Origin: a virus
Taxonomy: Duplodnaviria; Caudoviricetes
Reading direction: 5' to 3' (one strand)
IMG/VR virus record: IMGVR_UViG_3300025323_000513
Span: 1 to 59,902 of that record
Length of the DNA: 59,902 nucleotides
Shown: positions 19,961 to 59,902 of the stretch, piece after piece
Layout of the letters: every line of letters begins with the position of its first letter
Numbering within the stretch: the first letter of the stretch is position 1
Translations under genes and position numbers: made by a program
The notes under the pieces: generated by a model
What the model was told of the DNA's origin: nothing
Databases searched by the model: none
What the model saw: only the letters and a program-made list of their open reading frames with translations

Positions 19961-20020
19961 GCTTAGCTCCTGATCTCAATCCTCACGCCACTGCGATGAG
20001 GACTGAGTCAGTGGCCAAGC
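19961..20020 (-). ncRNA. Conserved structured element upstream of rep (copy A)
   Basis: 53/60 identical to 57665-57724, with a compensatory change. Confidence 0.65.
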
Positions 20021-21262: not shown

Positions 21263-21561
21263 TTTCTGAATAATTTAGTAATTCTCTTGTCGGCTTCTGC
21301 CAGCATCGTTTCATTGATCTGACTCATGATTTCGCTGAACAATCTGTCCCGGATAATGCCGTGTGCCATTGTTATGGCTTTGTCATTTTCCGCATCAAGA
21401 TTGGTGAGCTTTCCCATGATGTCGCCGGTGAATTCCGCTACTTCGTCGAGCATGTGAGGCAGGATCTGTTCGTCGACAATTGTCGGTGCTTTATCCTTCA
21501 CGAGTTTCAATGCTTCTCTGGCTAGCGTTTTCATCTTGGTTTGTAATGGCGTCATGTGCAT
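21259..21561 (-). CDS. Conserved hypothetical early protein
   Basis: Strongly similar paralog at 59004-59297. Confidence 0.8.
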   Translation of the reverse strand: MHMTPLQTKMKTLAREALKLVKDKAPTIVDEQILPHMLDEVAEFTGDIMGKLTNLDAENDKAITMAHGIIRDRLFSEIMSQINETMLAEADKRITKLFRK

Positions 21562-21796
21562 ATCCTTGAATTCTTCGTCTGCGGATTTCCGCCTTCTCTT
21601 TGAGCATGGTTTGTCGCTCTTTACTGAGAGATTGGTTCTTCCGTAACCGAATTTCTTTAGGTTGATAATCTATATCGATGACATCACCTATGTTCAACCG
21701 ATATTTTCCTGTGAGCCATTTTCCTTCGAGGATGAGGGCAGGAATGCCATATCTCCGATAGGTAACTGCTCGGGTACTTTTAGGTTTGTTTTTCAT
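21491..21796 (-). CDS. SymE-like (AbrB-fold) protein
   Basis: PALILEGKWL...IGDVIDI..QPKEIRL matches the SymE pattern; paralog at 59236. Confidence 0.65.
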   Translation of the reverse strand: MKNKPKSTRAVTYRRYGIPALILEGKWLTGKYRLNIGDVIDIDYQPKEIRLRKNQSLSKERQTMLKEKAEIRRRRIQGYAHDAITNQDENASQRSIETREG

Positions 21797-21843
21797 TGGT
21801 AGCATCTGCCGTTGTACATCGGCTGATCCTTTTCAGGACAATG
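21794..21843 (-). ncRNA. Three-way-junction RNA motif, copy 1 (covers symE-like ATG)
   Basis: CATTG-TCCT-GAAA-AGGA-TCAGCCG..CGGCAGATGCTAC-CAATG. Confidence 0.75.
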
Positions 21844-21850
21844 ATTTTGA

Positions 21851-22210
21851 TTAGATTCCCTTATCCACTATCACCTCATTAGCAAAGTGGTTTTTAAGGA
21901 ATTGATCTACAAGCTCGCGCTTTCCTTTGCTACCTATATGCCAGGTTGTAATCTCACGAATCGGCTGATCACTTTTGTATTCGTAGATTGTCACAATGGT
22001 TGGTTTTCTCGCACTTCCATCTTTGAAAGCCCATTCAACACGCACTTTGCTGTCACCGGATCTCCAGTCACCTTCTTGCGTGCAGTCATGTGGCTCTCCA
22101 AACTTTTCGACAAGCTGTTCGTATGTGGCTTTTATATACCGGTAGAAACCAGACCCCCACACATCCTTAAATTTGGCTTTTGTGAATTTAGAGTTAGATT
22201 TCATAATCAT
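21851..22210 (-). CDS. Hypothetical early protein (prophage A only)
   Basis: ATYEQLVEKFGEP...KVRVEW...TIYEYK...WHIG; no counterpart in prophage B. Confidence 0.75.
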   Translation of the reverse strand: MIMKSNSKFTKAKFKDVWGSGFYRYIKATYEQLVEKFGEPHDCTQEGDWRSGDSKVRVEWAFKDGSARKPTIVTIYEYKSDQPIREITTWHIGSKGKRELVDQFLKNHFANEVIVDKGI

Positions 22211-22255
22211 TTGTTGGTTAATAATTTCGACCTTTATAGACGATTCCCGGATATG

Positions 22256-22282
22256 AAAAAGACCCGGTATTACCAGGTCTTT
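22256..22282 (-). terminator. Terminator after the replacement gap 3' end (A)
   Basis: AAAGACCTGG-TAATA-CCGGGTCTTTTT. Confidence 0.7.
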
Positions 22283-22314
22283 AAATCAATTTATTAAGTT
22301 GTGAATCTTGGTCG

Positions 22315-22410
22315 CTAGACTAATCTACCGGCAGCAATGACATGATTTACGAGGGTGTATGTGTACCCTAGTTCATTGCTGTACCATGTCAGCTGTTTAG
22401 ACCTTTTCAT
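22315..22410 (-). CDS. Putative 31-aa leaderless ORF spanning att
   Basis: TGA-TACAAT extended -10 lies 7 nt before ATG; MKRSKQLTWYSNELGYTYTLVNHVIAAGRLV. Confidence 0.4.
   Translation of the reverse strand: MKRSKQLTWYSNELGYTYTLVNHVIAAGRLV
22331..22386. repeat. att junction between prophages B and A; recoded gap 3' end
   Basis: 40/56 nt identical to 59772-59827 with a perfect 10-bp core; minus strand encodes WYSNELGYTYTLVNHVIAA. Confidence 0.85.
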
Positions 22411-22580
22411 GGAGCTTATTGTATCACTTTTTCGAGAAAAAACCTCGCCCGCTCACCTGCTAAAATTCCGAGGACATCTCAGAAACTCAGCAGGCGAGCG
22501 AAGTGTGTAGTTGTCAAAGGACTTACAACTACGATTTTACCCGAACTCCTGACACATAGCAAGCAACAAAACGGACATTG

Positions 22581-22820
22581 TTAACAACTCATCAGGCCAG
22601 GATATTTGCTTTTGACAACCCCTGAAGATTGGGCTTTTTTGTCTCCCCTTTTAGCCTTTTCCCGTATGTATATTTCATGCACGGTTGATCGGGACAGGAA
22701 TTTCCCGGTCTTTTTATTCTTGTAGCGTTTCGCAAGACTCGCAAACGTATGAAGGACCGGATCGAGGTCATGCAACCTTACGATCTCGTCGTTCCTTTTC
22801 TGATGTGGCTGATTTGCCAT
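22581..22820 (-). CDS. Small basic HTH-like protein (regulator or excisionase candidate)
   Basis: KRNDEIVRL...TFASLAKRY...LSRSTVHEIY; between integrase and att; palindrome TTCGATTT-GTGA-AAATCGAA next to TATGAT upstream. Confidence 0.65.
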   Translation of the reverse strand: MANQPHQKRNDEIVRLHDLDPVLHTFASLAKRYKNKKTGKFLSRSTVHEIYIREKAKRGDKKAQSSGVVKSKYPGLMSC

Positions 22821-22864
22821 ATACGACTAATCATATTCGATTTTCACAAATCGAAAAGTAGGAA

Positions 22865-24004
22865 TTATACTTTTGACCACTTTCCGCCTCCTGGCGTGCG
22901 TACGACAGTCGCTCTTTTGGGAGCATTTATAAACTGATGATGCGATGGGACGTTTCCTTTTTGCATGTACTCGATAAAGTTTTCGAGGACTTCTTGTGCG
23001 TTGTCCAGACCATCCATGCTAGCAAGGCTTTTAAGATTTTTATTGAGTCTAGCCTTATCTTGTTTCGGATTACCTGGGTTATTCTTTTGGAATACCTGCC
23101 ATCTCTCCTTCAGGTCATTCCCCCACATCATGGTGTAGAACTGTGAGCTCTCAAGGTTTGAGTGTCCGAGGATGTTAGTAACGTCTGCACTTGCTCCACC
23201 CTCTTTGATAATCTTGCGACCTCCATAATGTCGAGCGGAGTGTGCATTGAAGATGGTCGGCAAACCAGCACGATTTGAGGTCATACGGAATACTTCACAA
23301 ACTCCACGTCCGGTCATTCGTTTACCGCGCACATCGTATGCCGCACATTTTCTAATTGAGGTAAATACTGCACCCTGATCTTCGAATGTCATCTTGTCTT
23401 GAATCTGGGATTTTTTCTTCAACCATGCTTTTAGATATTTTCCTGTTTGTGCTGTCCAGAATATTTCTCGGATAGGTCGGCGACCTCTCGACTTCTCTGT
23501 TTTAATAATTGCAGAGCCCGAGCAGTCCTTATTGAACACAAGGTCTTCTTCATTGAGCGAGACAATTTCGCCGGCGCGTGCCCACGAATCCCATACTATG
23601 TGTATCAGAGCAAGGTTTCGAATATTGTTTGGATTCGTATCGCGCGGGACCGCTTTCACCATCTTCTTAAAGTCTGCCTCATTTGCCACTCGAGGAATAT
23701 TGAATTCCTTTTTAGGTAACGGGATGAGTGATTCGTTGACGCATCGATATCCCTTTAGATTGTAGTATTCAAAAAACTTTCTCAATGCAAGAGCAACAAT
23801 CGTTATGCCATTTCTTTTCCACCCTAAACGCTCCATTTCTTTCATGTAATGGAGGATGTGATGTATTTGTACTTGCTCAATATCGGGGTCACCGAATGTT
23901 AAGCAAAAAATACGGAGGACCGCATCGTAGCGGATCACCGTTTGGCCAGAGACTTTAAAGCCTCTCCAATTTTTAAATTCTTCTATTGCTTCGCTAAATT
24001 TCAT
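22865..24004 (-). CDS. int: Tyrosine integrase
   Basis: RNLALI...ARAGE, HSARH, LGHSNL...Y catalytic residues; start MKFSEA. Confidence 0.92.
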   Translation of the reverse strand: MKFSEAIEEFKNWRGFKVSGQTVIRYDAVLRIFCLTFGDPDIEQVQIHHILHYMKEMERLGWKRNGITIVALALRKFFEYYNLKGYRCVNESLIPLPKKEFNIPRVANEADFKKMVKAVPRDTNPNNIRNLALIHIVWDSWARAGEIVSLNEEDLVFNKDCSGSAIIKTEKSRGRRPIREIFWTAQTGKYLKAWLKKKSQIQDKMTFEDQGAVFTSIRKCAAYDVRGKRMTGRGVCEVFRMTSNRAGLPTIFNAHSARHYGGRKIIKEGGASADVTNILGHSNLESSQFYTMMWGNDLKERWQVFQKNNPGNPKQDKARLNKNLKSLASMDGLDNAQEVLENFIEYMQKGNVPSHHQFINAPKRATVVRTPGGGKWSKV

Positions 24005-24240
24005 ATTATGGCCAACCAAAAAGTCCACCCAGATGCTAATCAAAGTGGACTTTTGGCGGCCTAATACTAATTAGTTTTTGGCCATTCCCAAGCTTGGGAT
24101 CATACCCTCTCGGGTATGCTCTCTCATCTTACTCTATTCCTTGTGGACATAGCAAGATGATGCTCGGGTCAAAGTCTCATTGTTAGCATCTGCCGTTTCC
24201 GGCTGATCCCTTTCGGGACAATGGAATCTTATTCGGTTGT
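24004..24240 (-). ncRNA. Structured integrase leader RNA with motif copy 2 (24178-24223) and complementary-loop hairpin (24004-24066)
   Basis: Five consecutive stem-loop elements between promoter and int ATG. Confidence 0.7.
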
Positions 24241-24247
24241 GCACTCT

Positions 24248-24276
24248 ATCCTAGTAGAGTGTGTACCTATTGTCAA
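24248..24276 (-). promoter_or_regulatory. Sigma70 promoter of leader RNA/integrase
   Basis: TTGACA-17 nt-TAGGAT. Confidence 0.75.
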
Positions 24277-24358
24277 GAAGGACAATGTATGGTTTAAAGT
24301 TTAACAACTAGAAAGTCTATAAAGTCAATTAAAATAAGGGTTTTTTGAAGGTACAAGA

Positions 24359-24391
24359 AAAATGTCGCATCACCTTTTGGGTGATGCGACA
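24359..24391 (-). terminator. Terminator after PRTase gene
   Basis: TGTCGCATCACC-CAAAA-GGTGATGCGACA then TTTTT. Confidence 0.8.
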
Positions 24392-24414
24392 GGTGTTTAA
24401 CAGATGAGGACGAA

Positions 24415-25416
24415 TTATTTGAGCATTTTTAACCTATTTTCCAAAAAGCCGACGATTTCCATGCCTAACGATGGCGGGCTTTGGTGAGAGCCGATTTCGA
24501 TAGGTAAAGAAACCCTTGGATTCTGCCCCAGGAGCTCTCCTATCGTCATTTTCTGCCCCACACGGCCGAATAACTCGATACTTGTCTCTAGGCAAAGCCT
24601 CGACAAATCTCGAGCCCCCTCAATCGGTAGGCTTGCCCACTCCTCGATCTTGCCGAATGGCAGGATATAAGGATAAGCACAGCTTGAGCCGTCCGCAGTT
24701 CGGACTGGCATAAAGCCGTGCGAGACAGGCTCTCCAAGGACACGTCCGCAGTTCGGGATGAATGGGATGAGGTCGTGGTCAGGAATCCAGTCGAGAAGGT
24801 TCTCGATCGGATGCACTATCACAAGCTCACCCTTGAAGACATGGCCGAGAACAAACTTTGCTCTTGTGCAACAGAATCCGATTACAATTGCCGTGACTGT
24901 GATACCTCGACTATTGAGCTCATGAAGTACGAATCGAAGAGTGCCACCACTGAATGCACCATCTTCGATGAGAACAACAGAACGACCGGCGATTTTCTTT
25001 GCCAGGTCGTCGAATTTCTTATCGAGAGGCCTGAAACCAGGACGAGGACCATGCCCGATCAACTGTCCGTCTGTGTTGAACAGCCGGTTGATGTTGAGGA
25101 GTAGACCTTCGCTTTTCGGATTTGAGTTGGCGATTTCTGGGCATGTGCTGAGGACCGCCTGCTGACCAAGGTCAGTGATACGGGCATCAACTTGCTCCCA
25201 GATTTTGCGCCGGAGTTCACTCATCTCGATCGTGTCGATCGTAATGCCTGGTAGAGCCTGCTGTATCTTTTGAAACAGGCCCATGTGAAAACGTTCGAAC
25301 AATTGATCGTCCGGACGCGGGATTGTGAGCGTCTTCGGGCGGAATGCCTGAAGACGACTTGCCACGTCATAGGTAACCACGTAGGTCCCATGACGAGTCG
25401 GTTGGACTATTTGCAT
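24415..25416 (-). CDS. Phosphoribosyltransferase-domain protein
   Basis: VVLIEDGAFSGGTL PRPP-binding loop. Confidence 0.75.
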   Translation of the reverse strand: MQIVQPTRHGTYVVTYDVASRLQAFRPKTLTIPRPDDQLFERFHMGLFQKIQQALPGITIDTIEMSELRRKIWEQVDARITDLGQQAVLSTCPEIANSNPKSEGLLLNINRLFNTDGQLIGHGPRPGFRPLDKKFDDLAKKIAGRSVVLIEDGAFSGGTLRFVLHELNSRGITVTAIVIGFCCTRAKFVLGHVFKGELVIVHPIENLLDWIPDHDLIPFIPNCGRVLGEPVSHGFMPVRTADGSSCAYPYILPFGKIEEWASLPIEGARDLSRLCLETSIELFGRVGQKMTIGELLGQNPRVSLPIEIGSHQSPPSLGMEIVGFLENRLKMLK

Positions 25417-25505
25417 GGGACCCTCCTTTTGGTTTTTGGTTTGTGAATGAAAAAGAACTGATATTGTCAGTCCTTAGTTTAACTTTTTCTGAGTGTTAGA
25501 GCGAA

Positions 25506-25826
25506 TTATTTTTGCTCATCCTTCATTCGCTCAATCATCATCTTGTATCCACCTGTTCCTTCCTTAAGCCAACGACTGATTTTTGCGATTGTAGCCATCG
25601 CCTCACCAGAGCTTTCCTGAATCTTTTCATAAGTTTCGCCGGCATCCAGTTTCTTTGCAACTTCCCATCGCATTGCGAATTCTCGCAAGTCTCTCTCACT
25701 CATGAGATCCCTGAAAAACATCTTTAATTCTTCTTCATTTTTCAACGACAAAAAGACCTTTAGTAAATCAGGGGATTTTTCCTTGATCTCTGCCCATATT
25801 CCATTTTTTTCTTCTTCTGGGATCAT
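25506..25826 (-). CDS. TrpR-like (YerC/YecD) protein
   Basis: FFRDLMSERDL..FAMRWEVAKKL..GETYEKI..SG...ATIAKISRWL..GTGGY. Confidence 0.85.
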   Translation of the reverse strand: MIPEEEKNGIWAEIKEKSPDLLKVFLSLKNEEELKMFFRDLMSERDLREFAMRWEVAKKLDAGETYEKIQESSGEAMATIAKISRWLKEGTGGYKMMIERMKDEQK

Positions 25827-25905
25827 ACGTTCCTTAAGTATACCAATTTTCAGGCGCGAAGTGGAGAGTTGAGGATTTCTTTACCTTTTCTTTATTAAAA
25901 ATTGA

Positions 25906-26289
25906 CTATTCCACGAGCTTGAAATCCCTCATTTCTTCCTGTGCCCTATCTAAATCCTCGCATACCCTTGCTGCTACATCCTTTGTTTTCTGGCTGTCTC
26001 TGTTCTCAAAAACAAACTCCACATCATCGTCATCTATAAAAGTTGCCAGAGATATATAGGCGGCGGCGAGTAATTTCATTCTCTCTCTCAGAGCCTGTTT
26101 CATTTTAGCTTTGGGCTGGGAAAGTTGAGAAAGCCGATTGAATATCTCGTGCCGGTTGAAAGGTATTCGAATGTGTTCGGCAACTTTGCGGACTGCCTCC
26201 ATGTCATCTTCTTCCACAGTACGAACATACCGAGAAGAGATTTTGAAGTCTAGGAGGACTTTACCAACAGACCTCTGGTTTCTCTCCAA
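25906..26289 (-). CDS. Hypothetical protein (start uncertain)
   Basis: ORF fills the gap between sppA and the TrpR-like gene. Confidence 0.5.
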   Translation of the reverse strand: MERNQRSVGKVLLDFKISSRYVRTVEEDDMEAVRKVAEHIRIPFNRHEIFNRLSQLSQPKAKMKQALRERMKLLAAAYISLATFIDDDDVEFVFENRDSQKTKDVAARVCEDLDRAQEEMRDFKLVE

Positions 26290-27130
26290 TTTTTTCCTCG
26301 ATATAGTTTTTCACTTCAGTATATCCACCAATGCTATCGATTAAGCCGAGCTCCTTTGCGCGCTCTCCAAGAATCGAAGAACCGTCAGCTATTGCTTGAA
26401 CTTTCTCAATCGGAATATTTCTATTGGTTGAGACATCTTGGATAAAGTTTTCATGGATAATTTTCAAGTCTCGAATAATGAGAGTTTTTTCTTCGTCAGT
26501 GAGCGTCTTGTCTGGACTACCGGCATCTTTGTATTTACCCGCGCTCAGCTGGATGTATTTGAGCCCTTCTTTTTCATTCTTCGAAACGTTATCGAGATAG
26601 GATGTTGTGACCCCAATGCTACCCACATCGGAATTCTTTGATGCGAATATCTGATCAGCTGTGGTGATTGCCCAATATGCTGCCGAAGTTCCGCTCTGGC
26701 GAATAAAGGCCACTACAGGCTTACTTGATGCCTTTATTGCATTGGCTACTTCTTCGCCTGCGACAGGATAACCTCCGAGAGAATCCACTTCCACAATAAC
26801 AGCTTTGATATTTTCATCATCTTCAGCAGATTCTAGCAAGCCCATTATTTCTTCACTCCCTACCACATCTTTATTGCTCATTAATTCATCGTCGTTGCTT
26901 TCAGGTACGTATGTATAGAGGTCGCCATGAAGATTGATGCCTAAGACGTTGCATGAGGAAGTGTCTTCATCTTCTGAATATTCGGATGCCACTGTGTCCA
27001 GCTTGAACGAGTCGTATACAGCCTCACTAGCAATGCTCATTGCAAAAAAGAGTATCAAAACACCGACGACATAGAATTTTCGTCGGTGTTTGTGTACAAA
27101 TTCGAGGGCTTTTTTCTCTGACTGCTGCAT
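26261..27130 (-). CDS. sppA: Signal peptide peptidase SppA (S49)
   Basis: N-terminal TM; VDSLGG, SAAYW, VGSIGV, AGKYKD, ADGS, GLID. Confidence 0.9.
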   Translation of the reverse strand: MQQSEKKALEFVHKHRRKFYVVGVLILFFAMSIASEAVYDSFKLDTVASEYSEDEDTSSCNVLGINLHGDLYTYVPESNDDELMSNKDVVGSEEIMGLLESAEDDENIKAVIVEVDSLGGYPVAGEEVANAIKASSKPVVAFIRQSGTSAAYWAITTADQIFASKNSDVGSIGVTTSYLDNVSKNEKEGLKYIQLSAGKYKDAGSPDKTLTDEEKTLIIRDLKIIHENFIQDVSTNRNIPIEKVQAIADGSSILGERAKELGLIDSIGGYTEVKNYIEEKIGEKPEVCW

Positions 27131-27166
27131 ATATGGAGTAAGTTTATCAGCTTTTGAGCTCGTCCG

Positions 27167-28201
27167 CTAATCAGACGTTTTTCCAGTTACAGAAACAACA
27201 GGAGCACCCTTGCTTGCAACCACAATTTCTTCTTTTATGAGTAGGTTTACCCAGTCTTCAGTATAAATATAATCCTTATGGACCATATCGTACTGACAAT
27301 ACTTTGATGTGGTTTTTGTCTTATTCTGGTCGTTTGTGGCAGGTCTTACCGCATATTTTCTCCACATGTCGGTATGCCAGTTTGAGCTTTTCTCGATACC
27401 AGTCCTTTCAAGTATTGTCTTCAGAATATCTTTTGGTTTGTATTTGCCTTGATTGGCTACTGGGACCTGCTTTTCTTTGATCAGTGCCTGAATCTTTTCA
27501 AAGTTTTCTTTTTGATTCTTGTCTGCAAGGTCAAAGTTTACAAATTCAACAGCTAGGTCTGATGAGTTTCTGTGATTTCCAATTTTAGGTATAAGGAATA
27601 CCTTGAATGAAAACTCTTGCGAGTCTCGAACCACGCGCGATATAGAACTTCTGTGATTCTTAATGAAATCAATCACATCCTGTCCATCCTGCGTAACCGG
27701 AATCTTTCTTTTAAAGTTACTGATCTGTAGAGGGATATTCAAATGGTCAACAATAGAATGCTTATTGGAAAATTCCTTGATCAAAAGGCTCTCATAGTTA
27801 ATCAAAAAGGCTTGGCACTCTCCGAGGACATGACTATCTATTTCCGGAATAAATCTATGCTCGATTTTATTTCTGAGTTTCGCCATAAACTCAATGTTTC
27901 GGAAGATAGGATTTGTCTGATGCTGAAAATATTGCTCGGCACACTTCACCAGTTCCCAAGCCTTATAGTCTCCATCGACTGTTTCGTAACGAATCGAATT
28001 TTTTCTTTTGTAGTAATACTTGACCCCCCTTCTTTCAAAAACTGCATGAAAAAAAGCCGTGTACGCTATACACATTAAGGTTATGTATGCGAAGGATTTA
28101 AAGGCTGTTCTCGGCTTGTTGTAAACTTCGACGGCAAGTAGCGAGGAGTCTTTAGATTTTTCTAGTAGTAGAGCTACTTTTTTGGGTAATCGGCCAGCCA
28201 T
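27167..28201 (-). CDS. DUF3644-like HEPN-domain protein
   Basis: AVEVYNKP N-terminus; RNKIEH Rx4H motif. Confidence 0.75.
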   Translation of the reverse strand: MAGRLPKKVALLLEKSKDSSLLAVEVYNKPRTAFKSFAYITLMCIAYTAFFHAVFERRGVKYYYKRKNSIRYETVDGDYKAWELVKCAEQYFQHQTNPIFRNIEFMAKLRNKIEHRFIPEIDSHVLGECQAFLINYESLLIKEFSNKHSIVDHLNIPLQISNFKRKIPVTQDGQDVIDFIKNHRSSISRVVRDSQEFSFKVFLIPKIGNHRNSSDLAVEFVNFDLADKNQKENFEKIQALIKEKQVPVANQGKYKPKDILKTILERTGIEKSSNWHTDMWRKYAVRPATNDQNKTKTTSKYCQYDMVHKDYIYTEDWVNLLIKEEIVVASKGAPVVSVTGKTSD

Positions 28202-28213
28202 AGATTTTCATGA

Positions 28214-29572
28214 TTATTTCTTTATCTTTACAGTCACAAGGTATTTGATTGGCATGATGGTAACCCCTAGAATCTCATTTGCGAATGGATTCGGCATTCG
28301 ATAGATGAGTGGAGTTGGTGAAGTGTAATCAAAAACGATGTAGAGATGATAATTTGGATTCTTCTGGGCAATGAGGACTTCGTTCTCAGAGATATAGAAT
28401 CTGAAAGTGAGTCCTGGCTTGCTCTTTACTGCCTTCACTTCGATATGCTTTTCTGATCCGTCAGCATTGTAAGAAAGCACGTCGTAGCCGAGCATGTCGC
28501 TCTCCAAAGAAACCTGCTTTATTTGAGACACTAAATCAGGGCGAACCTTTGCTAGCTCCTCTGTCTCGTGTTTAATTACGATCTTTTCTGCAAAGTCGCC
28601 GGCTACCCTATTCGCACCATCTCGCAATTCGAAGTCGATTTTGTGGGCAACAACATGTGCCCTCTTTCTTGGGACCGTACTGGTATCGACATCTTCATCA
28701 ATTTCGATATTTACAGTCTGAGGATGTACGCTGTCGATATCAGGCAAAAGAGAAGGCTCTCCAACTAGCTTATTGATTATTTCCTCCTGTTCTTCGGTGG
28801 ATCTCTTTTCAAGATTTTCTATCACACGCAAGTAGTTTGGGTTGAGAGTGTAGATTTGCCATCCATTGTTTGAAGTAAGGTATGGGAAGTATCCCTCATC
28901 GCTGAAGTCTCGGACCGAGAAACTCTCGAGGACTACCTCGATGTCTTTCTTTGAAAGGTTGGAAACAATTTTGTTGTCCGCATCCTTTTGGATATATGAG
29001 GAAATAAGAAGCATATCGAAGAATCGTTTTACGTTGTCAGCAAAATCTCCTATTCCGAGCTCCTGGCTCTTTTCCTCGAGTGCTTTGAGGTAAACATCTT
29101 TATTTGGAGATACTCTAAATTCTTCTATCAGCTTTATTGCCGTGGGTATTTCATCTTTGCTATTGATCCAACAAACGAAGAGTCGGTACTCGTCAAAGGA
29201 AATGTGGTCAAGCGTGTATAAGATATGCAACAATACCTCCATTGGAGCAATCTTGATTGAAAGATTGTCATTGAGTTTTGCACAATCGAGATAAACTTTC
29301 ATGACCTGCTCGTCGAGTATCTTTTGCTTGTATGGAGAATGCAGAAAAGTCTCGCCGGCATTCGAGATTTGCAAATTGTCGCCTCCGAGGTTAATCACGA
29401 GACCGAGATATCTCAAGGTAATACTGTTTCGTGTAGTGAGCTGATTAAAATCAGTCGTCAAATCAGCGTGAATTTTATTCACAGCATCACTGGTATATTC
29501 CTTTTGCTTTGCTTTCTTCCAAAAGTTTCCAGTGCCTTTGTTTTCTAAAAAATGTTTGTATTCGTTCTCCAT
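28214..29572 (-). CDS. Putative restriction nuclease: recognition domain + DUF3883-type PD-(D/E)xK domain
   Basis: GDFAEKIV...GYDVLS...HIEVKA...FYISENE. Confidence 0.8.
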   Translation of the reverse strand: MENEYKHFLENKGTGNFWKKAKQKEYTSDAVNKIHADLTTDFNQLTTRNSITLRYLGLVINLGGDNLQISNAGETFLHSPYKQKILDEQVMKVYLDCAKLNDNLSIKIAPMEVLLHILYTLDHISFDEYRLFVCWINSKDEIPTAIKLIEEFRVSPNKDVYLKALEEKSQELGIGDFADNVKRFFDMLLISSYIQKDADNKIVSNLSKKDIEVVLESFSVRDFSDEGYFPYLTSNNGWQIYTLNPNYLRVIENLEKRSTEEQEEIINKLVGEPSLLPDIDSVHPQTVNIEIDEDVDTSTVPRKRAHVVAHKIDFELRDGANRVAGDFAEKIVIKHETEELAKVRPDLVSQIKQVSLESDMLGYDVLSYNADGSEKHIEVKAVKSKPGLTFRFYISENEVLIAQKNPNYHLYIVFDYTSPTPLIYRMPNPFANEILGVTIMPIKYLVTVKIKK

Positions 29573-29574
29573 AA

Positions 29575-30687
29575 CTATTTATTCAAAATTTGCGCAATTC
29601 TCGAAGCAATTGCTTTAGCTAATAATGGTGGGACCGCATTCCCGATCTGGATGCCTACCGAGCTCTTGTTGCCATAGAATACGAAGTCATCGTCAAATGA
29701 CTGGATTCTGGCTGCCTCACGGGGAGTGAGGGCTCTGTGGGAGACTGGATGGGTGATTCTACCTACTGAAGGTGTATCAAATCTGGTCGTAATTGTATAG
29801 GCCGGCTTATCTTTCTCCAGTCGGCCGAAAGCTCCACTATGCACGGATTTGGTCTGTAGCTCCTTTGGAATGTGGATTCTGCCTTGGCCAGGCTTTATCG
29901 TCTTCAAGAGGTCTATAATTCGCTTATCGTGCTTTGTGGCTTGGTGATTGTAGAGTTTCTTCGCCTTGCCCTTTCTATCCTTGGCATACGGCGCAATAGG
30001 GGCATTTCCTGCGTATTCTGATTCAAATTCCCCCGCCCCCGCATCGATTTTAGGCAAATCGAGAATCGTTTCGCCGATTGTCACATAAGGCTTTGATGCC
30101 TCTGGACCATGAGTTTTCTTTGGAAAGAACTCTTTAGGGTCGATACCGAGTCGATTACCGATGAATACAGCTCTTTTTCTAAGCTGTGGCACACCATATT
30201 CCGCTGCAAGCAATACTCTGACTTCTGTCTCGTATCCGATCTGCTTGAATAGGCGGATTATTTCATCCTTTACTGCGCCATCATGCATGTTGAGCATAGC
30301 GGCGACATTTTCCATCACGAATACTTTCGGCTTTATGTCTTTGACGATTCGATGGAACTCTTTGAAAAGTTCGTTTCTAGGATCGTTCATAAAAGCGCCA
30401 TCATTTCTGATTCTTCGCCCTGCCATACTAAAGCCTTGGCATGGTGGACCTCCCACAATCACGTCTATTTCTTCGCCATTATATAAATCCTTAGACTTTA
30501 TTTTTGTGATGTCTTCGACAATCATCTTAGTACCAGGATGGTTTTTGGCGTAAGTGTTCGCAATGTCAGGTTTGTATTCGTTTGCAGCAACTACCTCAAA
30601 GCCGGCTTTTTTGAAACCGGTTGAGATACCTCCGACACCTGCGAACAGGTCTATGATTTTTAGTTTTTTATTTTTGTTGCCAGCCAT
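29575..30687 (-). CDS. C5-cytosine DNA methyltransferase of the RM locus
   Basis: DLFAGVGG, GGPPCQGFS, ENV, QLRKR, REAARIQSF, GNAVPP. Confidence 0.95.
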   Translation of the reverse strand: MAGNKNKKLKIIDLFAGVGGISTGFKKAGFEVVAANEYKPDIANTYAKNHPGTKMIVEDITKIKSKDLYNGEEIDVIVGGPPCQGFSMAGRRIRNDGAFMNDPRNELFKEFHRIVKDIKPKVFVMENVAAMLNMHDGAVKDEIIRLFKQIGYETEVRVLLAAEYGVPQLRKRAVFIGNRLGIDPKEFFPKKTHGPEASKPYVTIGETILDLPKIDAGAGEFESEYAGNAPIAPYAKDRKGKAKKLYNHQATKHDKRIIDLLKTIKPGQGRIHIPKELQTKSVHSGAFGRLEKDKPAYTITTRFDTPSVGRITHPVSHRALTPREAARIQSFDDDFVFYGNKSSVGIQIGNAVPPLLAKAIASRIAQILNK

Positions 30688-32263
30688 GTTCGTTTTTTTC
30701 TTTAACGAAGTTGTAGGCAAGGTGTTTTTTGAGTACATCTTCAATATTCATAACTTGCCCATCCTTATCCGCATACAAATGTTTTTCAACAATGAAAGGG
30801 ATCAGTCTTTCGTATAATGCGTCCGAGCTAATTGAGCCCTTAGCTTGGTTAATCCAAGTTCCGACCTTTTTGATAATTTCTTTTTCGTTATCCACTATGC
30901 TGCGGACGACAGGCTTTTCAGCCTTGATACTTGTGTCTTTTAGGAAGTTGTAGACGAAGTCACCTCTAAGGGTATTGTTTCTGTTAATTCCCTGCGTTCC
31001 GGATGCTACCGCTTGCTCCTGATAAACAACGTTTACGAGGTGGAATCCTGCATCTGTAACCGCATCCATGACTGCTTTCCAAATATTCAGATTTCTATTG
31101 TGGAAAGTGAATGATAGATAGCTCTTATTTTTCAATACTCGGAAAAGTTCTGCGTACACTTTCTTCATTCGAGAAGAGTAATCTTCGTATTTCTTGTTTC
31201 GATACGGGTCATAGATAATCTCGTTCTCGTAGTTCACTACGTTCTTGAGCCATGCATTCCAGAACATACTTAGACCGAAGTATGCAATGCTATCGCCATA
31301 CGGCGGATCGGTGAAAATATAATTTACTGAAGAGCTCTCGACTGCTTTTAAATTTGTTGCATCAATGTTTAATATTTTTGCATCCTTTGGGTTAAAGATA
31401 CTCACTAGCTCACTCTTACCTTTATGTATTTTTTTGAACCGTTCTCTGAAACTGTTGAGTGGATTCCTCTCGGTGTGAATCTTAGGAGCCCAGAGTTTAC
31501 TAATAACCCATCCTGATTTTCCATTCACTGTCTCTGGATCGCCTGGAATCATTTTTGAAACGTTCGGCAACATCGACGTAAAGCAAAGAAGAATTAATTT
31601 CTTTGTATTCTGATTCTTGACCTCATCAATATCTTTTATGATTGATCCGAGCACGGCAAGAGAACGCTCAGTAAAAAATTGATTCAAGTGGCTCTTACCA
31701 TTTCTCTTAACGAATTTTAATATCTCATCCTTCGGGTAAAATAATTTATGCGCCTTATCTAGTTTCAAAAAAGTCTCTGTTGCACTCTTAAGTACCTTTT
31801 GGTCATAGGCATCTGTATTCTTTGTAAATTTACCGCAAGACGGGCATGTACCTTTTACTTTTGAAAAAACTTCATGATCCCAGATTGAATTTTCAAATGG
31901 AACTTCTGTTTTGCAGTGCGGACACTTTGTGAGATACAGCTCAATAAACTTTTTATAGTTCTTATCGTAGATATCTTCGAACTCAACCTGGAAATCATTC
32001 AAATCAACATCGCTGATAGTGTTTTGCGCTATAAAACACGCCATCGGATTTAAATCGATACCGATTGCCTTTCTATTATTTTTGAGCGATTCAATCACAA
32101 CCACTCCACTACCCATAAATGGATCAAGAACAACGTCGCCCGGCTTTGAAAAATTGAGGATGTAATCTCGCACAACGTTATGAGGTTTTCTTCCCCAATA
32201 CTTGTGCATCATGTAGTGTGATGGATGTGTCTCTGCTACTATATTTTTGTTGATTTTCTTCAT
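30668..32263 (-). CDS. Amino (N6A/N4C) DNA methyltransferase with Zn ribbon
   Basis: DPFMGSG precedes DPPY; CPHC..CPSC. Confidence 0.9.
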   Translation of the reverse strand: MKKINKNIVAETHPSHYMMHKYWGRKPHNVVRDYILNFSKPGDVVLDPFMGSGVVVIESLKNNRKAIGIDLNPMACFIAQNTISDVDLNDFQVEFEDIYDKNYKKFIELYLTKCPHCKTEVPFENSIWDHEVFSKVKGTCPSCGKFTKNTDAYDQKVLKSATETFLKLDKAHKLFYPKDEILKFVKRNGKSHLNQFFTERSLAVLGSIIKDIDEVKNQNTKKLILLCFTSMLPNVSKMIPGDPETVNGKSGWVISKLWAPKIHTERNPLNSFRERFKKIHKGKSELVSIFNPKDAKILNIDATNLKAVESSSVNYIFTDPPYGDSIAYFGLSMFWNAWLKNVVNYENEIIYDPYRNKKYEDYSSRMKKVYAELFRVLKNKSYLSFTFHNRNLNIWKAVMDAVTDAGFHLVNVVYQEQAVASGTQGINRNNTLRGDFVYNFLKDTSIKAEKPVVRSIVDNEKEIIKKVGTWINQAKGSISSDALYERLIPFIVEKHLYADKDGQVMNIEDVLKKHLAYNFVKEKNEHGWQQK

Positions 32264-32331
32264 AGTTATTAAAACGGGGTATGTACCGTCACACACGACA
32301 CATACCAAGAAACCCATCGAATAGCAATGAC

Positions 32332-36275: not shown

Positions 36276-36313
36276 ATCATAGAGGCGGGTTCTTGCCTAA
36301 CTGTAGGAATTAC
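36276..36313 (-). promoter_or_regulatory. Late promoter motif (lysis genes)
   Basis: GTAATTCCTACAG-19 nt-TATGAT-6 nt-ATG. Confidence 0.75.
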
Positions 36314-43005: not shown

Positions 43006-43043
43006 AGTATCTCTCCTAAAAAATGAATATCTGTAGGAATTAC
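43006..43043 (-). promoter_or_regulatory. Late promoter motif (fiber genes)
   Basis: GTAATTCCTACAG-19 nt-GATACT-6 nt-ATG. Confidence 0.75.
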
Positions 43044-47866: not shown

Positions 47867-47904
47867 AGTGTGTTCGAGAAAAAATGCAGAACTGTAGGAA
47901 TTAC
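47867..47904 (-). promoter_or_regulatory. Late promoter motif (scaffold/coat genes)
   Basis: GTAATTCCTACAG-19 nt-CACACT. Confidence 0.7.
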
Positions 47905-47968
47905 TTTTTATAGAAAAAGCCACCGATTTTGGCGGTGGTTTTTTCTTTATCTTTTCTTGAAAATTTCT

Positions 47969-51115: not shown

Positions 51116-51153
51116 AGTATGAGCGTGAAAATTGTTCTTTCTGTAGGAATTAC
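51116..51153 (-). promoter_or_regulatory. Late promoter motif (portal)
   Basis: GTAATTCCTACAG-19 nt-CATACT-9 nt-ATG. Confidence 0.75.
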
Positions 51154-51159
51154 TTTCAT

Positions 51160-57664: not shown

Positions 57665-57724
57665 GCTTAGCCCCCGATCTCAGCCCTCATGCCACTGCGA
57701 TCAGGGCTGAGTCAGTGGCCAAGC
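57665..57724 (-). ncRNA. Conserved structured element upstream of rep (copy B)
   Basis: Matches 19961-20020. Confidence 0.65.
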
Positions 57725-59010: not shown

Positions 59011-59297
59011 TTGAATAATTTAGTAATTCGCTTATCTGCCTCAGTCAGCATCGTTTTGTTGATCTGACTCATGATTTCTTTGAGCAATGCATCTCTGATG
59101 ATTCCGTGTGCCATGGTGATAGCTAGGTCATCTTCAGGATCAACATTGGTCAGCTTTCCCATGAGTTCGCCTGTGTAATGGGCTACCTCATCGAGGGCTT
59201 CTGGAAGGATTCGCTCATCGACTATTGCCGGAGCTCTATCTTTGACCAGTTTCAACGCCTCCCTCGCTAGCGTTCTCATCTTTTCTTGATTCGGCAT
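59004..59297 (-). CDS. Conserved hypothetical early protein
   Basis: Paralog of 21259-21561. Confidence 0.8.
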   Translation of the reverse strand: MPNQEKMRTLAREALKLVKDRAPAIVDERILPEALDEVAHYTGELMGKLTNVDPEDDLAITMAHGIIRDALLKEIMSQINKTMLTEADKRITKLFKK

Positions 59298-59538
59298 TGT
59301 TTGATTCTTGAATTCGCTGCAATTGAAACTCTTTTTTCTCTTTGCGCTTTTTTTGGTTTTGAAGGCTTAGAGGAGTATTCTTCTGCAATCGAATTTCTTT
59401 AGGCTGATAATTGATATCGACTTGATCGCCTATGCTGAGTCGATATTTTGTCGTGAGCCATTTACCTTCAAGGATTAAGGCTGGTATGCCTGGTCGCCTG
59501 TAGGTAACAGCTCGTGTGGTGTTGAGTGTTTTCTTCAT
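59236..59538 (-). CDS. SymE-like (AbrB-fold) protein
   Basis: PALILEGKWL; paralog of 21491-21796. Confidence 0.65.
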   Translation of the reverse strand: MKKTLNTTRAVTYRRPGIPALILEGKWLTTKYRLSIGDQVDINYQPKEIRLQKNTPLSLQNQKKRKEKKEFQLQRIQESNNAESRKDENASEGGVETGQR

Positions 59539-59582
59539 TGTTAGCATCTGGACCCGTCGGACCGATCCCTTTCGGGACAATG
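59536..59582 (-). ncRNA. Three-way-junction RNA motif, copy 3
   Basis: CATTGT-CCC-GAAA-GGG-ATC..CAGATGCTA-ACAATG. Confidence 0.75.
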
Positions 59583-59631
59583 ATTAATTGGCTAGTAATT
59601 TCGACCTTTTTGGTGAACTGCGGAGCAATAC

Positions 59632-59683: not shown

Positions 59684-59902
59684 CTATTTCTGTCCGTCCC
59701 GGCCATTTGTCCAAATGCCTGCGTTTATCCTCATCTGTCTCCCTTCTTCTTCTGGGAGGAGGTAGGATGCCGCCGCAATGACATGGCGAACCAATGTATG
59801 GGTGTACCCTATTTCGTTGTCATACCAAGCTAAAACCTTCACCAAATCACCCCCGACTACTCTGGTAAACGTCAGATCAGCAATCGAGGCGTGCTTGTTC
59901 CC
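59684..59902 (-). CDS. gap: Glyceraldehyde-3-phosphate dehydrogenase, 3' end (partial; integration target)
   Basis: Hand translation GNKHASIADLTFTRVVGGDLVKVLAWYDNEIGYTHTLVRHVIAAA contains the GAPDH KV.AWYDNE.GY signature. Confidence 0.92.
   Translation of the reverse strand, partial: GNKHASIADLTFTRVVGGDLVKVLAWYDNEIGYTHTLVRHVIAAASYLLPEEEGRQMRINAGIWTNGRDGQK

What the first reader, a model, noticed from the sequence alone, without database searches (positions are those of the whole stretch)
24004..24276. Candidate RNA-based lysis/lysogeny or toxin control: a three-copy start-codon-burying RNA motif and a matching antisense loop in the integrase leader
Seen: the minus-strand motif CATTG(T)-CCY-GAAA-RGG-ATC-[variable stem-loop]-CAGATGCTA-(A/C)CAATG occurs at 21794-21843, 24178-24223 and 59536-59582. 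It shows a compensatory CCC/GGG to CCT/AGG change and a swappable second hairpin. The closing stem always contains an ATG: the symE-like gene in both phages, and a 3-codon ORF (ATG AGA CTT TGA) in the int leader. The int leader starts at a TTGACA-17-TAGGAT promoter and ends in a long hairpin at the int ATG. Its loop TTTGATTAGCATCTGG (24029-24044) is complementary to the motif's conserved (C)CAGATGCTA(A): 11 nt to the phage B early copy, 10 nt to the cis copy, 9 nt to the phage A copy. Established: P4 CI, P1 C4 and SymR control immunity or toxin genes by short RNA-RNA pairing. Inference: the lysogenic int transcript supplies an RNA that silences the early operon or SymE-like toxin in trans and tunes int in cis. 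No classical CI repressor is visible in prophage B.
Basis: partly seen in the sequence, partly recalled or inferred. Interest (0 to 1): 0.88.

Follow-up and report, generated by a model that had tools for sequence, protein, structure and literature searches.

The report
Structured integrase-leader RNA in CPR prophages
The stretch before the integrase gene of this prophage of a tiny "candidate phyla" bacterium encodes a previously undescribed, highly folded RNA whose end loop base-pairs with a small RNA motif that also covers the start of the phage's early genes, so it probably acts as an RNA switch linking integration to early gene expression.

Summary
The three motif copies, the promoter and the complementary loop lie where stated and exceed chance. 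The window holds two related tailed prophages in tandem at the 3' end of a gap gene. Relatives carry Patescibacteria (CPR) labels.

The int leader (24005-24240, minus) is a ~235-nt structured RNA found in 28 distinct related leaders. It matches no Rfam family. Of 63 proposed pairs, 98.5% of cells pair and 17 pairs show compensatory changes. The loop-to-motif pairing (GAUGCUAR with YUAGCAUC) holds in 28 of 28 leaders, with three pair types at one position and a double swap in one phage.

Two mutually exclusive folds are nearly equal in energy, which suggests an attenuator-like switch before int.

In 10 genomes holding both the leader and the early-operon motif, the early copy's variable base pairs with the loop: 9 Watson-Crick, 1 G·U. 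This favours pairing in trans, but the evidence is thin, purely comparative, and lacks expression data. "SymE-like toxin" is not supported by HMMs; there is only a weak AbrB/MazE-like fold signal.

The parts
24248..24276 (-). P_int promoter, TTGACA-17-TAGGAT
   Evidence: scores it 10 of 12. TTGACAAT, a 17-nt spacer and TAGNNT are present in all 25 full-length leaders collected. TTGACAAT was used to cut out the sequences, so its invariance is partly by construction.
24242..24261 (.). 7-bp inverted repeat (CACTCTA / TAGAGTG) straddling the -10 box; a candidate operator
   Evidence: Helix 1 has 7 pairs, 2 of them with changes on both sides (AU 16 / CG 7; CG 13 / UA 8 / UG 2). Its 5' arm lies upstream of the likely transcription start, so a DNA-level role is more likely. 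No binding protein was identified.
24005..24240 (-). int leader: a structured RNA of about 235 nt (helices P0, P1-P3 motif, P4-P8)
   Evidence: Fold energy -96.9 kcal/mol, z -8.16. In the 23-sequence alignment A1, 63 pairs are 98.5% paired, 17 pairs carry double changes and 0 of 500 shuffles do as well. No Rfam hit.
24232..24239 (-). P0 5' strand (CAACCGAA); pairs with 24013-24020 (UUUGGUUG) to close the leader domain
   Evidence: Helix 2 has 8 pairs, 97.8% paired, 2 with double changes and 2 with one-sided (wobble) changes.
24177..24224 (-). Leader copy of the 48-nt three-way-junction motif: P1 CAUUG/CAAUG, P2 UCCC-GAAA-GGGA, variable hairpin P3, single strand J
   Evidence: Covariance model R1 scores it 71.4 bits. 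P2 has 2 pairs and P3 has 4 pairs with double changes across 44 distinct copies.
24183..24190 (-). J strand GAUGCUAA; pairs with loop bases 24032-24039 (UUAGCAUC)
   Evidence: Helix 5 has 8 pairs, 100% paired, 3 with double changes. The last pair reads A-U 16 / G-C 7 in A1, and C-G in L225.
24172..24176 (-). GACUU segment just 3' of the motif, complementary to the 5' arm of P8 (AAGUC); part of the alternative long helix
   Evidence: It is invariant in 23 of 23 leaders. It is paired in the RNAalifold consensus. There is no covariation because both sides are invariant. The P8 arm was fixed by the search pattern.
24086..24160 (-). Central hairpins P4, P5 and P6; P6 is the palindrome UCCCAAGCUUGGGA
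   Evidence: P4 has 9 pairs (4 double changes) and P5 has 9 pairs (6 double changes). P6 is invariant, but 12 of its nt were fixed by the search pattern.
24021..24052 (-). P8: terminator-like hairpin (8-bp stem, 16-nt loop 24029-24044) followed by a U run, 17 nt before the int AUG
   Evidence: Read. Helix 9 is 100% paired (U-A 16 / U-G 7 at one pair). The terminator scan does not list it, because its loop exceeds that scan's 3-8 nt limit.
22865..24004 (-). Tyrosine integrase gene of prophage B
   Evidence: Pfam Phage_integrase E 1.4e-17. PHROG integrase E 1.3e-20.
22581..22820 (-). 79-aa ORF after int; possibly an excisionase or helix-turn-helix protein, judged by eye only
   Evidence: ORF listed. 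No Pfam or PHROG hit.
22330..22400 (-). gap-3'-end-like fragment: the att junction between prophage B (int side) and prophage A (early side)
   Evidence: It aligns with the host gap 3' end at about 59700-59830. DNA contigs of run X1 break at 22341-22370, with depth 28 against 15.
59535..59583 (-). Early-operon copy of the motif in prophage B, covering the start codons of the first early gene
   Evidence: R1 scores it 63.1 bits. Its strand CCAGAUGCUAA is 11 nt complementary to the leader loop (duplex -18.5 kcal/mol).
59236..59535 (-).
   Evidence: Pfam gives no significant match and nothing to SymE: one sub-threshold hit, Cupredoxin_1, E 0.014, 15.8 bits against a cut-off of 27. At least 120 homologue clusters exist, all unannotated. 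The AF2 model has pLDDT 69, and its best PDB folds are AbrB-N, Sso7c4, MazE and SpoVT at E 0.4 or worse.
21793..21844 (-). Early-operon copy of the motif in prophage A; its J ends in C (GCUACC)
   Evidence: R1 scores it 62.4 bits. It is identical to the copy in genome G005, whose own leader has J = C and loop = G.

Best explanation
What it is. The region is the 5' leader of the integrase operon of a temperate tailed phage of Patescibacteria (CPR). It encodes a conserved, structured RNA of about 235 nt.

Anatomy.
- The 5' domain is a 48-nt three-way junction: P1 CAUUG/CAAUG, P2 with a GAAA loop, a variable hairpin P3, and a single strand J = GAUGCUAR.
- The 3' end is a terminator-like hairpin (P8) 17 nt before the int AUG.
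- The 16-nt loop of P8 pairs with J over 8 bp. This is shown by covariation.

Proposed switch (inferred). The strands of P1 and P8 can also swap partners. J, the 3' strand of P1 and GACUU then pair with the 5' arm and loop of P8, giving a long helix of nearly equal energy. The leader therefore most likely works as a two-state switch (attenuator) that sets how much transcription or translation reaches int.

Proposed action in trans (inferred from comparison only). A second copy of the junction motif, without the rest of the leader, covers the first start codons of the early operon. This phage almost entirely lacks Shine-Dalgarno sites, so start-codon accessibility should matter. The J of that copy carries the same variable base as the leader of the same phage. 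The loop of the leader RNA can therefore pair with the early mRNA in trans. That would most likely block translation of the first early gene and couple the separately promoted int unit to the early operon, in the manner of P4 CI or P1 c4 RNAs.
For: Shown:
- The leader is conserved in 28 distinct sequences from genomes and metagenomes.
- 63 pairs are 98.5% paired. 17 pairs have double changes. 0 of 500 shuffles match this, and slid controls give 34-40% paired.
- The J:loop helix is 100% paired. It reads A-U 16 / G-C 7 in A1, plus C-G in L225. L219 has GAUGC changed to AACGC, matched by GCAUC changed to GCGUU.
- On an Int tree the J/loop state needs 5 changes, at least 3 of them forced by well-supported branches.
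- G·U pairs are frequent in P0, P4 and P5, so the structure is specific to the transcribed strand.
- The two mutually exclusive folds differ by at most 5.9 kcal/mol in 23 of 23 leaders, without counting the pseudoknot.
- GACUU and the U run after P8 are invariant.

For action in trans:
- In 10 of 10 genomes with both elements the early J base pairs with the loop: 9 Watson-Crick and 1 G·U. In five of them (four genomes plus prophage B of the window) the two elements lie 21-36.5 kb apart on one strand, in the order expected for one prophage.
- Permutation p is 0.005, or 0.018 after merging near-identical phages.
- The first seven bases of J are invariant in all early copies, although P3 beside it varies freely.
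- Predicted loop:early-J duplexes are -12.3 to -18.5 kcal/mol.
- Only 5 of 61 ORFs have a Shine-Dalgarno-like motif.
- The two tandem phages of the window differ at the J position (A against C), as heteroimmune phages would.
Against: - There are no expression data. No RNA run holds the locus, and the three runs labelled RNA-Seq are flagged as probably DNA.
- P1 and the P8 stem never covary, so neither of the two folds is proven separately.
- P8 has an unusually large loop for an intrinsic terminator, and the terminator scan did not call it.
- The phylogeny-aware test has only 2-3 independent pairs: 1 goes the same way and 1 shows no change.
- The leader and the early motif lie only about 2.4 kb apart in the circular phage genome. 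Linkage or gene conversion could therefore mimic three-way covariation.
- A single-base difference changes the predicted duplex energy little: same-phage mean -14.2 against cross-phage mean -12.6 kcal/mol. U-type loops pair equally well with G-type targets.
- In contig L188 a leader of type G/C is followed 2 kb downstream by an early copy of type C. If that contig is a free phage genome rather than a tandem junction, it is a mismatch.
- Protein regulators are not excluded.
Confidence: 0.55

Rival explanations
1. Cis-only regulator. The leader is an int attenuator, or a riboswitch-like or protein-binding element, in which J:loop pairing acts only within the leader. The early-operon copy is the same sensor or structural module acting on its own. 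It either buries the start codon or binds the same unknown protein or ligand. The match between early J and the loop would reflect common descent, linkage or gene conversion between the two motif copies.
For: - All strong covariation is intramolecular.
- The motif is a compact three-way junction with a GNRA loop and an invariant junction strand, like many aptamers.
- The two copies lie about 2.4 kb apart in the phage genome.
- The phylogeny-aware test of early J against the loop is not significant.
- A single mismatch costs little predicted energy.
- L188 is a possible mismatch.
Against: - The J/loop state changes 3-5 times relative to the adjacent int gene. Yet the early J, which lies beyond int, still matches in 9 of 10 genomes and wobbles in 1. 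Linkage alone does not explain this well.
- P3 differs between the leader and early copies of the same phage, so wholesale gene conversion is unlikely.
- A protein that reads J would not need a complementary loop.
Confidence: 0.3
2. DNA operators. GATGCTAR, present twice directly and once inverted in the loop, is the binding site of a phage DNA-binding repressor. Candidates are the AbrB-like early protein or the 79-aa ORF. The variable base would mark repressor specificity.
For: - All three sites change together, as operator sets do in heteroimmune phages.
- No G·U pair occurs within the J:loop helix in cis.
- The first early protein has a weak AbrB/MazE-like fold, which is a DNA-binding fold.
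Against: - The sites are embedded in helices that covary with strand-specific G·U pairs, and one site sits exactly in a hairpin loop.
- The sites lie 50-230 nt downstream of the promoter, not over it. A separate palindrome already overlaps the -10 box.
- In G406 the early site reads G where the loop complement would need A. This is a different DNA site but a legal RNA wobble pair.
Confidence: 0.08
3. SymE/SymR-like type I toxin-antitoxin. The motif is the 5' structure of a toxin mRNA controlled by a cis-encoded antisense RNA. The int-leader copy would be a remnant of such a gene.
For: - The early protein has a weak AbrB-superfamily fold, the superfamily to which SymE belongs. That SymE belongs there is recalled, not tested.
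- A weak promoter-like site on the plus strand at 21678-21707 points toward the motif (9 of 12).
Against: - There is no SymE_toxin Pfam hit, even at E up to 10.
- The gene heads a replication and recombination operon in every relative seen.
- The leader copy is conserved together with about 190 nt of further structured RNA and is no remnant.
- The antisense promoter lies in conserved coding sequence and was not shown to be conserved beyond that.
Confidence: 0.04

Closest known systems
Phage P4 immunity RNA (CI RNA, with its targets seqA and seqC); Rfam families C4 and IsrK
   Same: - An RNA made from an operon leader carries a short sequence complementary to sites on phage transcripts, including one in cis on the same transcript.
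- Pairing, not a protein repressor, is proposed to control early expression.
- The P4 system is described in a passage of PMC3632133 read. Mechanistic details beyond that passage are recalled.
   Different: - No sequence or structure match to C4 or IsrK in Rfam.
- Here the RNA is the int leader, not the early-operon leader.
- It is about 235 nt and no processing is known.
- The target strand sits in a three-way junction over a start codon.
- The host is a CPR bacterium, not an enterobacterium.
Phage P1/P7 c4 antisense RNA (immI: c4-icd-ant)
   Same: - Loops of a small structured RNA pair with sites at a ribosome-loading region of a co-resident operon.
- A few compensatory base differences between loops and targets distinguish related phages (recalled).
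- Here a variable J/loop base distinguishes the two tandem phages.
   Different: - Not a member of Rfam C4.
- Only one loop and one 8-bp site.
- A one-base difference gives a small predicted energy change.
- No evidence for RNase P processing.
Transcription attenuators and riboswitch expression platforms (terminator against antiterminator)
   Same: - Two mutually exclusive helices share strands.
- A hairpin with a U run lies just before the controlled gene.
- A structured 5' domain could be stabilised by a factor.
   Different: - No ligand or protein is known.
- The hairpin loop itself pairs with the sensor domain.
- The same sensor domain recurs on another mRNA without the platform.
SymE/SymR type I toxin-antitoxin
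   Same: - A short RNA-RNA pairing over the 5' end of a small gene for an AbrB-fold-like protein.
- The fold signal here is weak.
   Different: - No SymE Pfam match.
- The regulator would be trans-encoded 22-37 kb away in the prophage, not a cis antisense RNA.
- The gene is the first of a phage early operon.

Membership tests
Rfam C4 antisense RNA (P1 c4 / P4 CI) and IsrK (P4 seqA) | Match to the family covariance model at or above its gathering score | tested here: not met
   No Rfam family matched the whole window at gathering score. At E up to 10 in 21500-24400 there were 4 weak hits, none to C4 or IsrK and none on the motif. A spurious mir-5984 hit (21.4 bits against a gathering score of 95) lies on the P8 hairpin.
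Antisense-RNA phage immunity (works like P4 CI / P1 c4) | Regulator sequence complementary to target site or sites on phage mRNA, kept through compensatory changes | tested here: met
   Cis site: 8 bp, 100% paired, 3 positions with double changes. Trans site: 9 Watson-Crick and 1 G·U in 10 genomes. Permutation p is 0.005 or 0.018. The phylogeny-aware test is underpowered.
Antisense-RNA phage immunity (works like P4 CI / P1 c4) | A stable small RNA accumulates in lysogens and confers immunity | not testable with these tools
   No RNA run holds the locus. The runs that were laid are contigs flagged as probably DNA.
SymE/SymR type I toxin-antitoxin | Protein matches the SymE_toxin family (Pfam) | tested here: not met
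   No SymE hit for either early protein at E up to 0.01 or at E up to 10. PHROGs gives only one family of unknown function, for one of the two proteins.
SymE/SymR type I toxin-antitoxin | Cis-encoded antisense RNA overlapping the 5' end of the toxin gene | tested here: inconclusive
   A weak promoter-like site lies on the plus strand at 21678-21707 (9 of 12). It is inside coding sequence. Its conservation was not examined, and there are no RNA data.
SpoVT/AbrB (swapped-hairpin) superfamily | Fold match to solved members | tested here: inconclusive
   The AF2 model has mean pLDDT 69.1. The top Foldseek PDB hits are AbrB-N, Sso7c4, Abh, MazE and SpoVT, but E is 0.4-2.5 and TM is 0.29-0.35 on the query; none reaches E 0.001. 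A profile search of PDB sequences gave only one spurious hit.
Terminator/antiterminator attenuator | Two mutually exclusive helices sharing strands, one of them a hairpin followed by a U run just upstream of the gene | tested here: met
   The RNAalifold consensus gives the long helix. The forced local and long folds lie within 5.9 kcal/mol in 23 of 23 leaders. The U run is invariant. That termination actually occurs is not shown.
Intrinsic terminator, by the definition of the scan tool | Stem of at least 5 pairs, loop of 3-8 nt, then a T run | tested here: not met
   P8 is not among the 6 terminator-like sites. Its loop is 16 nt.
Tyrosine recombinase (phage integrase) | Match to Pfam Phage_integrase above the cut-off | tested here: met
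   E 1.4e-17, 64.4 bits against a cut-off of 27.1.

The most novel reading that the evidence does not exclude
CPR phages of this family keep lysogeny and immunity through RNA rather than a CI-type protein. The int-leader RNA comes from the only separately promoted unit of a genome whose genes otherwise all run one way, and it would be the prophage's immunity factor. Its hairpin loop reads a start-codon-bearing junction strand on early mRNA, while the leader's own copy of that strand acts as a built-in competitor or switch for int. The J/loop base or bases would set the immunity type, which would explain how two related phages with different J bases sit in tandem at one att site.
Probability: 0.25. 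Interest if true: 0.85.

Novelty: new variant of a known kind. Interest (0 to 1): 0.72.

Why it matters
- Almost nothing is known about gene regulation in phages of the Candidate Phyla Radiation, and their hosts are mostly uncultured.
- This is a conserved RNA, well supported by covariation and absent from Rfam, that sits at the decision point of a temperate phage: integrase on one side, early operon on the other.
- If the trans pairing is real, RNA-based immunity, so far known from P1, P7 and P4-like elements of enterobacteria, would extend to a distant phylum with an unrelated RNA.
- It would also give a simple, testable rule (J/loop complementarity) for immunity types and double lysogeny.
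- Even under the cis-only reading, it is a new class of structured leader controlling a tyrosine integrase.
- The near absence of Shine-Dalgarno sites in these phages makes start-codon burial a plausible general control mode there.

Tried and rejected
- Known RNA families. Rfam over the whole window at gathering score gave 0 hits. At E up to 10 over 21500-24400 there were only 4 chance-level hits. Resemblances that I recalled (hammerhead, twister, small riboswitches, integron attC) found no support. The attC or single-stranded-DNA idea was dropped because the helices use strand-specific G·U pairs; this was reasoning, not a dedicated test.
- Motif as att site. Rejected. The att junction is the gap-3'-like fragment at about 22330-22400 and 59700-59830.
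- Int protein search in viral contigs. No relative was found.
- Loose DNA pattern in viral contigs. Apart from the window's own three copies, L032 was the only true instance among the 124 matches examined.
- Tighter pattern. 4 viral stretches, 2 true. 55 genome stretches, 13 true.
- Leader patterns in viral contigs. 2 and 45 stretches, none a true leader.
- Random sample of 401 genomes of the phylum. The leader was found only in the genome used as the centre of the search.
- RNA evidence. No RNA holder is listed. Three runs labelled RNA-Seq are flagged as probably DNA, and their contigs also cover the promoter, so nothing can be said about transcripts.
- Profile search of PDB sequences with the early protein. 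One spurious hit.
- treekit. The careful Int tree did not finish, so the quick tree was used. The independent-pairs test had too few pairs.
- Early promoter. No convincing sigma-70-type site was seen by eye upstream of the early motif. The conserved AAAGGTCGAAATTA box next to att may instead be an Int arm site or a different kind of promoter. This is unresolved.
- Supplementary files of papers were not consulted.
Full report
CHECK OF THE OBSERVATION

- The minus-strand motif lies at 21793-21844, 24177-24224 and 59535-59583 (covariance-model scores 62-71 bits).
- Its 19-nt 5' half occurs 3 times against 0.08 expected. CAGATGCTA occurs 4 times against 0.33 expected. In both cases 0 of 100 shuffles reach the observed count.
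- The fourth CAGATGCTA is on the other strand, inside the loop of the hairpin just before the int ATG at 24004.
- The loop (24029-24044) is complementary over 11, 10 and 9 nt to the three copies, as stated.
- The promoter TTGACA-17-TAGGAT lies at 24276-24248.
- The short motif folds only modestly better than shuffles (z -1.8 to -2.7).
- The whole 256-nt leader folds at -96.9 kcal/mol, z -8.16, with 0 of 200 shuffles as good.

CONTEXT

The window is one IMG/VR provirus record, and all of its genes lie on the minus strand. It holds two related tailed phages in tandem, about 77% identical and collinear.
- Pfam finds portal, capsid, tail tube, collar and amidase proteins.
- Pfam and PHROGs find AAA_24/Sak4-like, RepO-like, RusA-like and methylase proteins.
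- The right end of the window is the 3' end of a glyceraldehyde-3-phosphate dehydrogenase gene.
- A second, gap-3'-like fragment lies at about 22330-22400, between the int module and the early genes of the left phage.
- DNA contigs of a probable source run break exactly there and change depth from 28 to 15.

Prophage B therefore runs from about 59.75 kb down to about 22.36 kb. Its order is early genes, structural genes, lysis, a cargo island, then P_int-leader-int-ORF79. Prophage A starts at about 22.33 kb and runs off the left end of the window.

Relatives of the motif were found in 13 loci of 12 genomes. Eleven of those loci carry Patescibacteria or CPR labels: Saccharibacteria, Parcubacteria, Paceibacterota, Taylorbacteria and "Patescibacteria group". 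In a random sample of 401 genomes of that phylum the element was found only in the genome used as the centre of the search. It therefore marks a particular phage family, not the phylum.

THE LEADER IS A CONSERVED STRUCTURED RNA

Collection.
- A pattern of 20 fixed bases (P6 and the 5' arm of P8) found 21 true leaders among 41 metagenome stretches.
- Four more came from genome contigs.
- Five further distinct ones came from BLAST searches of the genomes that hold the motif.
- In all there are 28 distinct leaders. The alignment A1 holds 23 of them.

Structure counts. For a structure with nine helices:
- 98.5% of 1436 cells form standard pairs.
- 17 of 63 pairs show changes on both sides.
- 0 of 500 shuffles reach any of the five measures.
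- Sliding the partners by 1-3 columns drops pairing to 34-40%.

Individual helices.
- P0 closes the domain by pairing the 5' end with the bases just after P8. P0, P4 and P5 covary, often through G·U pairs, so the structure belongs to the transcribed strand.
- P1 (CAUUG/CAAUG), P2, P6 and the P8 stem do not vary within the leaders. For P6 and one P8 arm this is partly because the search pattern fixed them.
- Across 44 distinct copies of the short motif, both leader and early type, P2 has 2 pairs and P3 has 4 pairs with double changes. P1 shows only U-A to U·G in 3 copies. That alignment was fitted to the model, which biases it toward the model's structure.
- No Rfam family matches. Two literature searches returned no description of such an RNA in their listings.

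THE LOOP PAIRS WITH THE MOTIF IN CIS

The strand J (GAUGCUAR, 24183-24190) and the loop bases YUAGCAUC (24032-24039) are complementary in every leader.
- The last pair reads A-U in 16 and G-C in 7 sequences of A1.
- In the five further leaders it reads G-C in L223, L224 and L261, A-U in L252 and C-G in L225.
- L219 has changed GAUGC to AACGC in J and GCAUC to GCGUU in the loop, which makes two more compensatory pairs.
- On a tree of 24 Int proteins the state of this pair needs 5 changes, at least 3 of them forced by well-supported branches. A and G states occur in both main Int clades (this is the quick tree, because the careful search did not finish).

TWO FOLDS

RNAalifold prefers a long helix. 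In it J, the 3' strand of P1 and the invariant GACUU pair with the 5' arm and loop of P8, and the 5' strand of P1 pairs with the 3' arm of P8. This excludes the local fold, in which P1 and P8 both form and J:loop becomes a pseudoknot.

Forcing either fold gives energies within 5.9 kcal/mol of each other in 23 of 23 leaders, without counting the pseudoknot. P8 is followed by an invariant U run and stands 17 nt before the int AUG.

I therefore read the leader as a two-state attenuator-like switch. That reading is inference.
- Covariation does not distinguish the two folds.
- The terminator scan does not list P8, because its loop is 16 nt.

THE EARLY-OPERON COPY AND THE TRANS QUESTION

The early copies carry the same P1, P2 and J but lack the rest of the leader.
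- They sit on the first start codons of the early operon. Both the AUG in J and the AUG in P1 are in frame, and many database gene calls start with ML(T/A/P)M.
- Only 5 of 61 ORFs in the window have a Shine-Dalgarno-like motif, and the upstream regions are A/U-rich. A GC-rich fold over a start codon should therefore be inhibitory.

Ten genomes hold both elements. The states at the variable position, given as leader J / loop / early J, are:
- window B: A/U/A
- G001: G/C/G
- G004: G/C/G
- G005: C/G/C
- G406: A/U/G
- G407: A/U/A
- G408: G/C/G
- G410: A/U/A
- G411: G/C/G
- G412: G/C/G

That makes 9 Watson-Crick pairs, 1 G·U and no mismatch. In G004, G005, G406, G412 and window B the two elements lie 21-36.5 kb apart on one strand, in the order expected for a single prophage.

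Statistics and energies.
- Shuffling the early states gives at least 9 matches in 0.5% of trials, or 1.8% after merging two near-identical pairs. This ignores phylogeny.
- The phylogeny-aware test finds only 2-3 independent pairs (1 same way, 1 no change) and cannot be significant.
- Predicted loop:early-J duplexes are -12.3 to -18.5 kcal/mol. The same-phage mean is -14.2 and the cross-phage mean is -12.6. One base therefore gives little specificity.

Early copies that lie directly downstream of a leader, across the att region, differ from it.
- In the window the leader is type A/U and the downstream early copy is type C. That copy belongs to phage A. It is identical to the early copy of G005, whose own leader is type C/G.
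- In contig L188 the leader is type G/C and the downstream early copy is type C.
- L188 may be another tandem junction or a free phage genome. If it is a free genome, it is a counter-example.

WEIGHING THE EXPLANATIONS

For action in trans:
- J is invariant in early copies, while the neighbouring P3 varies freely.
- The early J follows a loop state that has changed several times relative to the int gene lying between them.
- The P_int unit is the only separately promoted unit in a genome that otherwise runs one way.

Against it:
- No transcript data exist.
- Few independent contrasts are available.
- The two copies are physically linked in the phage genome.
- Candidate protein regulators exist: a TrpR-like protein in B's cargo, the 79-aa ORF after int, the first early protein, and a covarying palindrome over the -10 box of P_int.

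My odds are:
- about 0.9 that the leader is a structured cis-acting RNA with J:loop pairing;
- about 0.5 that the loop also acts on early mRNA in trans;
- about 0.25 that this amounts to the phage's immunity system.

THE "SYME-LIKE" GENE

- Neither early protein matches SymE_toxin or any Pfam family at useful E-values. PHROGs gives one family of unknown function for the B protein and nothing for the A protein.
- At least 120 homologue clusters exist, all unannotated or named as hypothetical, apart from one source name that looks automatic.
- An AlphaFold model built from 36 sequences has mean pLDDT 69.
- Its best PDB matches are AbrB-N, Sso7c4, Abh, MazE and SpoVT, but at E 0.4-2.5.
- The swapped-hairpin superfamily is therefore a reasonable lead. 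"Toxin" is unsupported. A DNA-binding early regulator is at least as likely.

COMPARISON WITH KNOWN SYSTEMS

The system works most like the antisense immunity RNAs of P4 (CI RNA with seqA and seqC; passage of PMC3632133 read) and of P1/P7 (c4; recalled). In each, a leader-derived structured RNA pairs with sites on phage transcripts, including a site in cis.

It is not a member of those Rfam families, and it differs in several ways:
- its location, the int leader;
- its size;
- its target architecture, the junction strand of a three-way junction over a start codon;
- its host phylum.

It also resembles terminator/antiterminator attenuators, but no ligand is known.

I class it as a new variant of a known kind: a new RNA family using a known regulatory logic.

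LIMITS

- Metagenome contigs could not be extended or searched by handle.
- No RNA run holds the locus.
- Supplementary files of papers were not consulted.

Noticed in passing
window 1-59902; junctions at about 22330-22400 and 59700-59830: The single IMG/VR 'provirus' record is really two related phages (about 77% identity) integrated in tandem into the 3' end of a gap (GAPDH) gene. Each phage supplies a replacement 3' end for gap. In source-like DNA contigs the assembly graph branches at 22341-22370, and an alternative gap-to-phage-A junction appears as a loose end.
   Followed up: partly
window 24242-24261: A 7-bp inverted repeat overlaps the -10 box of P_int. It exists in several covarying versions in related phages (CACTCTA, CACTACA, CACTATA, CACTCCA and their complements). 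It looks like an operator with specificity types. The binding protein is unknown.
   Followed up: partly
window 22205-22235 and 59579-59609; also L163, L188, L226, L227, L229, L230, L256, L257: A conserved box, AAAGGTCGAAATTAYTARCCAA, lies between the att-side terminator and the early motif (or the first early ORF). It could be an Int arm-type site or an unusual early promoter. No good sigma-70-type promoter was seen there by eye.
   Followed up: no
whole window: Shine-Dalgarno-like motifs are nearly absent from the phage genes (5 of 61 ORFs), and the upstream regions are A/U-rich. Two cargo genes do carry such sites: the PRTase-like gene ending at 25416 and the TrpR-like gene ending at 25826.
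   Followed up: partly
window 24415-34791: Prophage B carries a cargo island between lysis and int that phage A-type relatives seem to lack. It encodes a PRTase-like protein, a TrpR-like protein, an S49 peptidase (SppA-like), DUF3644, a NOV_C-domain protein, a C5 and an N6/N4 DNA methylase, and a ResIII helicase with an AlwI-like nuclease region. This looks like a restriction or defence island.
   Followed up: partly
window 24086-24099: Leader hairpin P6 is the perfect palindrome UCCCAAGCUUGGGA, invariant in all leaders (12 of its nt were fixed by the search pattern). Its self-complementary loop AGCU could mediate RNA dimerisation by kissing.
   Followed up: no
window 19961-20020 and 57665-57724: A 60-nt intergenic stretch between the RepO-like and AAA_24 genes is 88% identical between the two phages, above the roughly 77% background. 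It contains inverted repeats. It may be an origin or another structured element.
   Followed up: no
window 36294-36313, 43018-43044, 47879-47905, 51128-51154: The motif CTGTAGGAATTAC(T) recurs in front of several late genes of prophage B. It is a candidate late promoter or regulatory site.
   Followed up: no
L188 1400-3720 (minus strand): This 5.7-kb metagenome contig has a leader of type G/C, then int, then the att-side box, a homologue of the 119-aa ORF, and an early motif of type C. It is either a second tandem junction of heteroimmune phages or a free phage genome whose loop and early target mismatch.
   Followed up: partly
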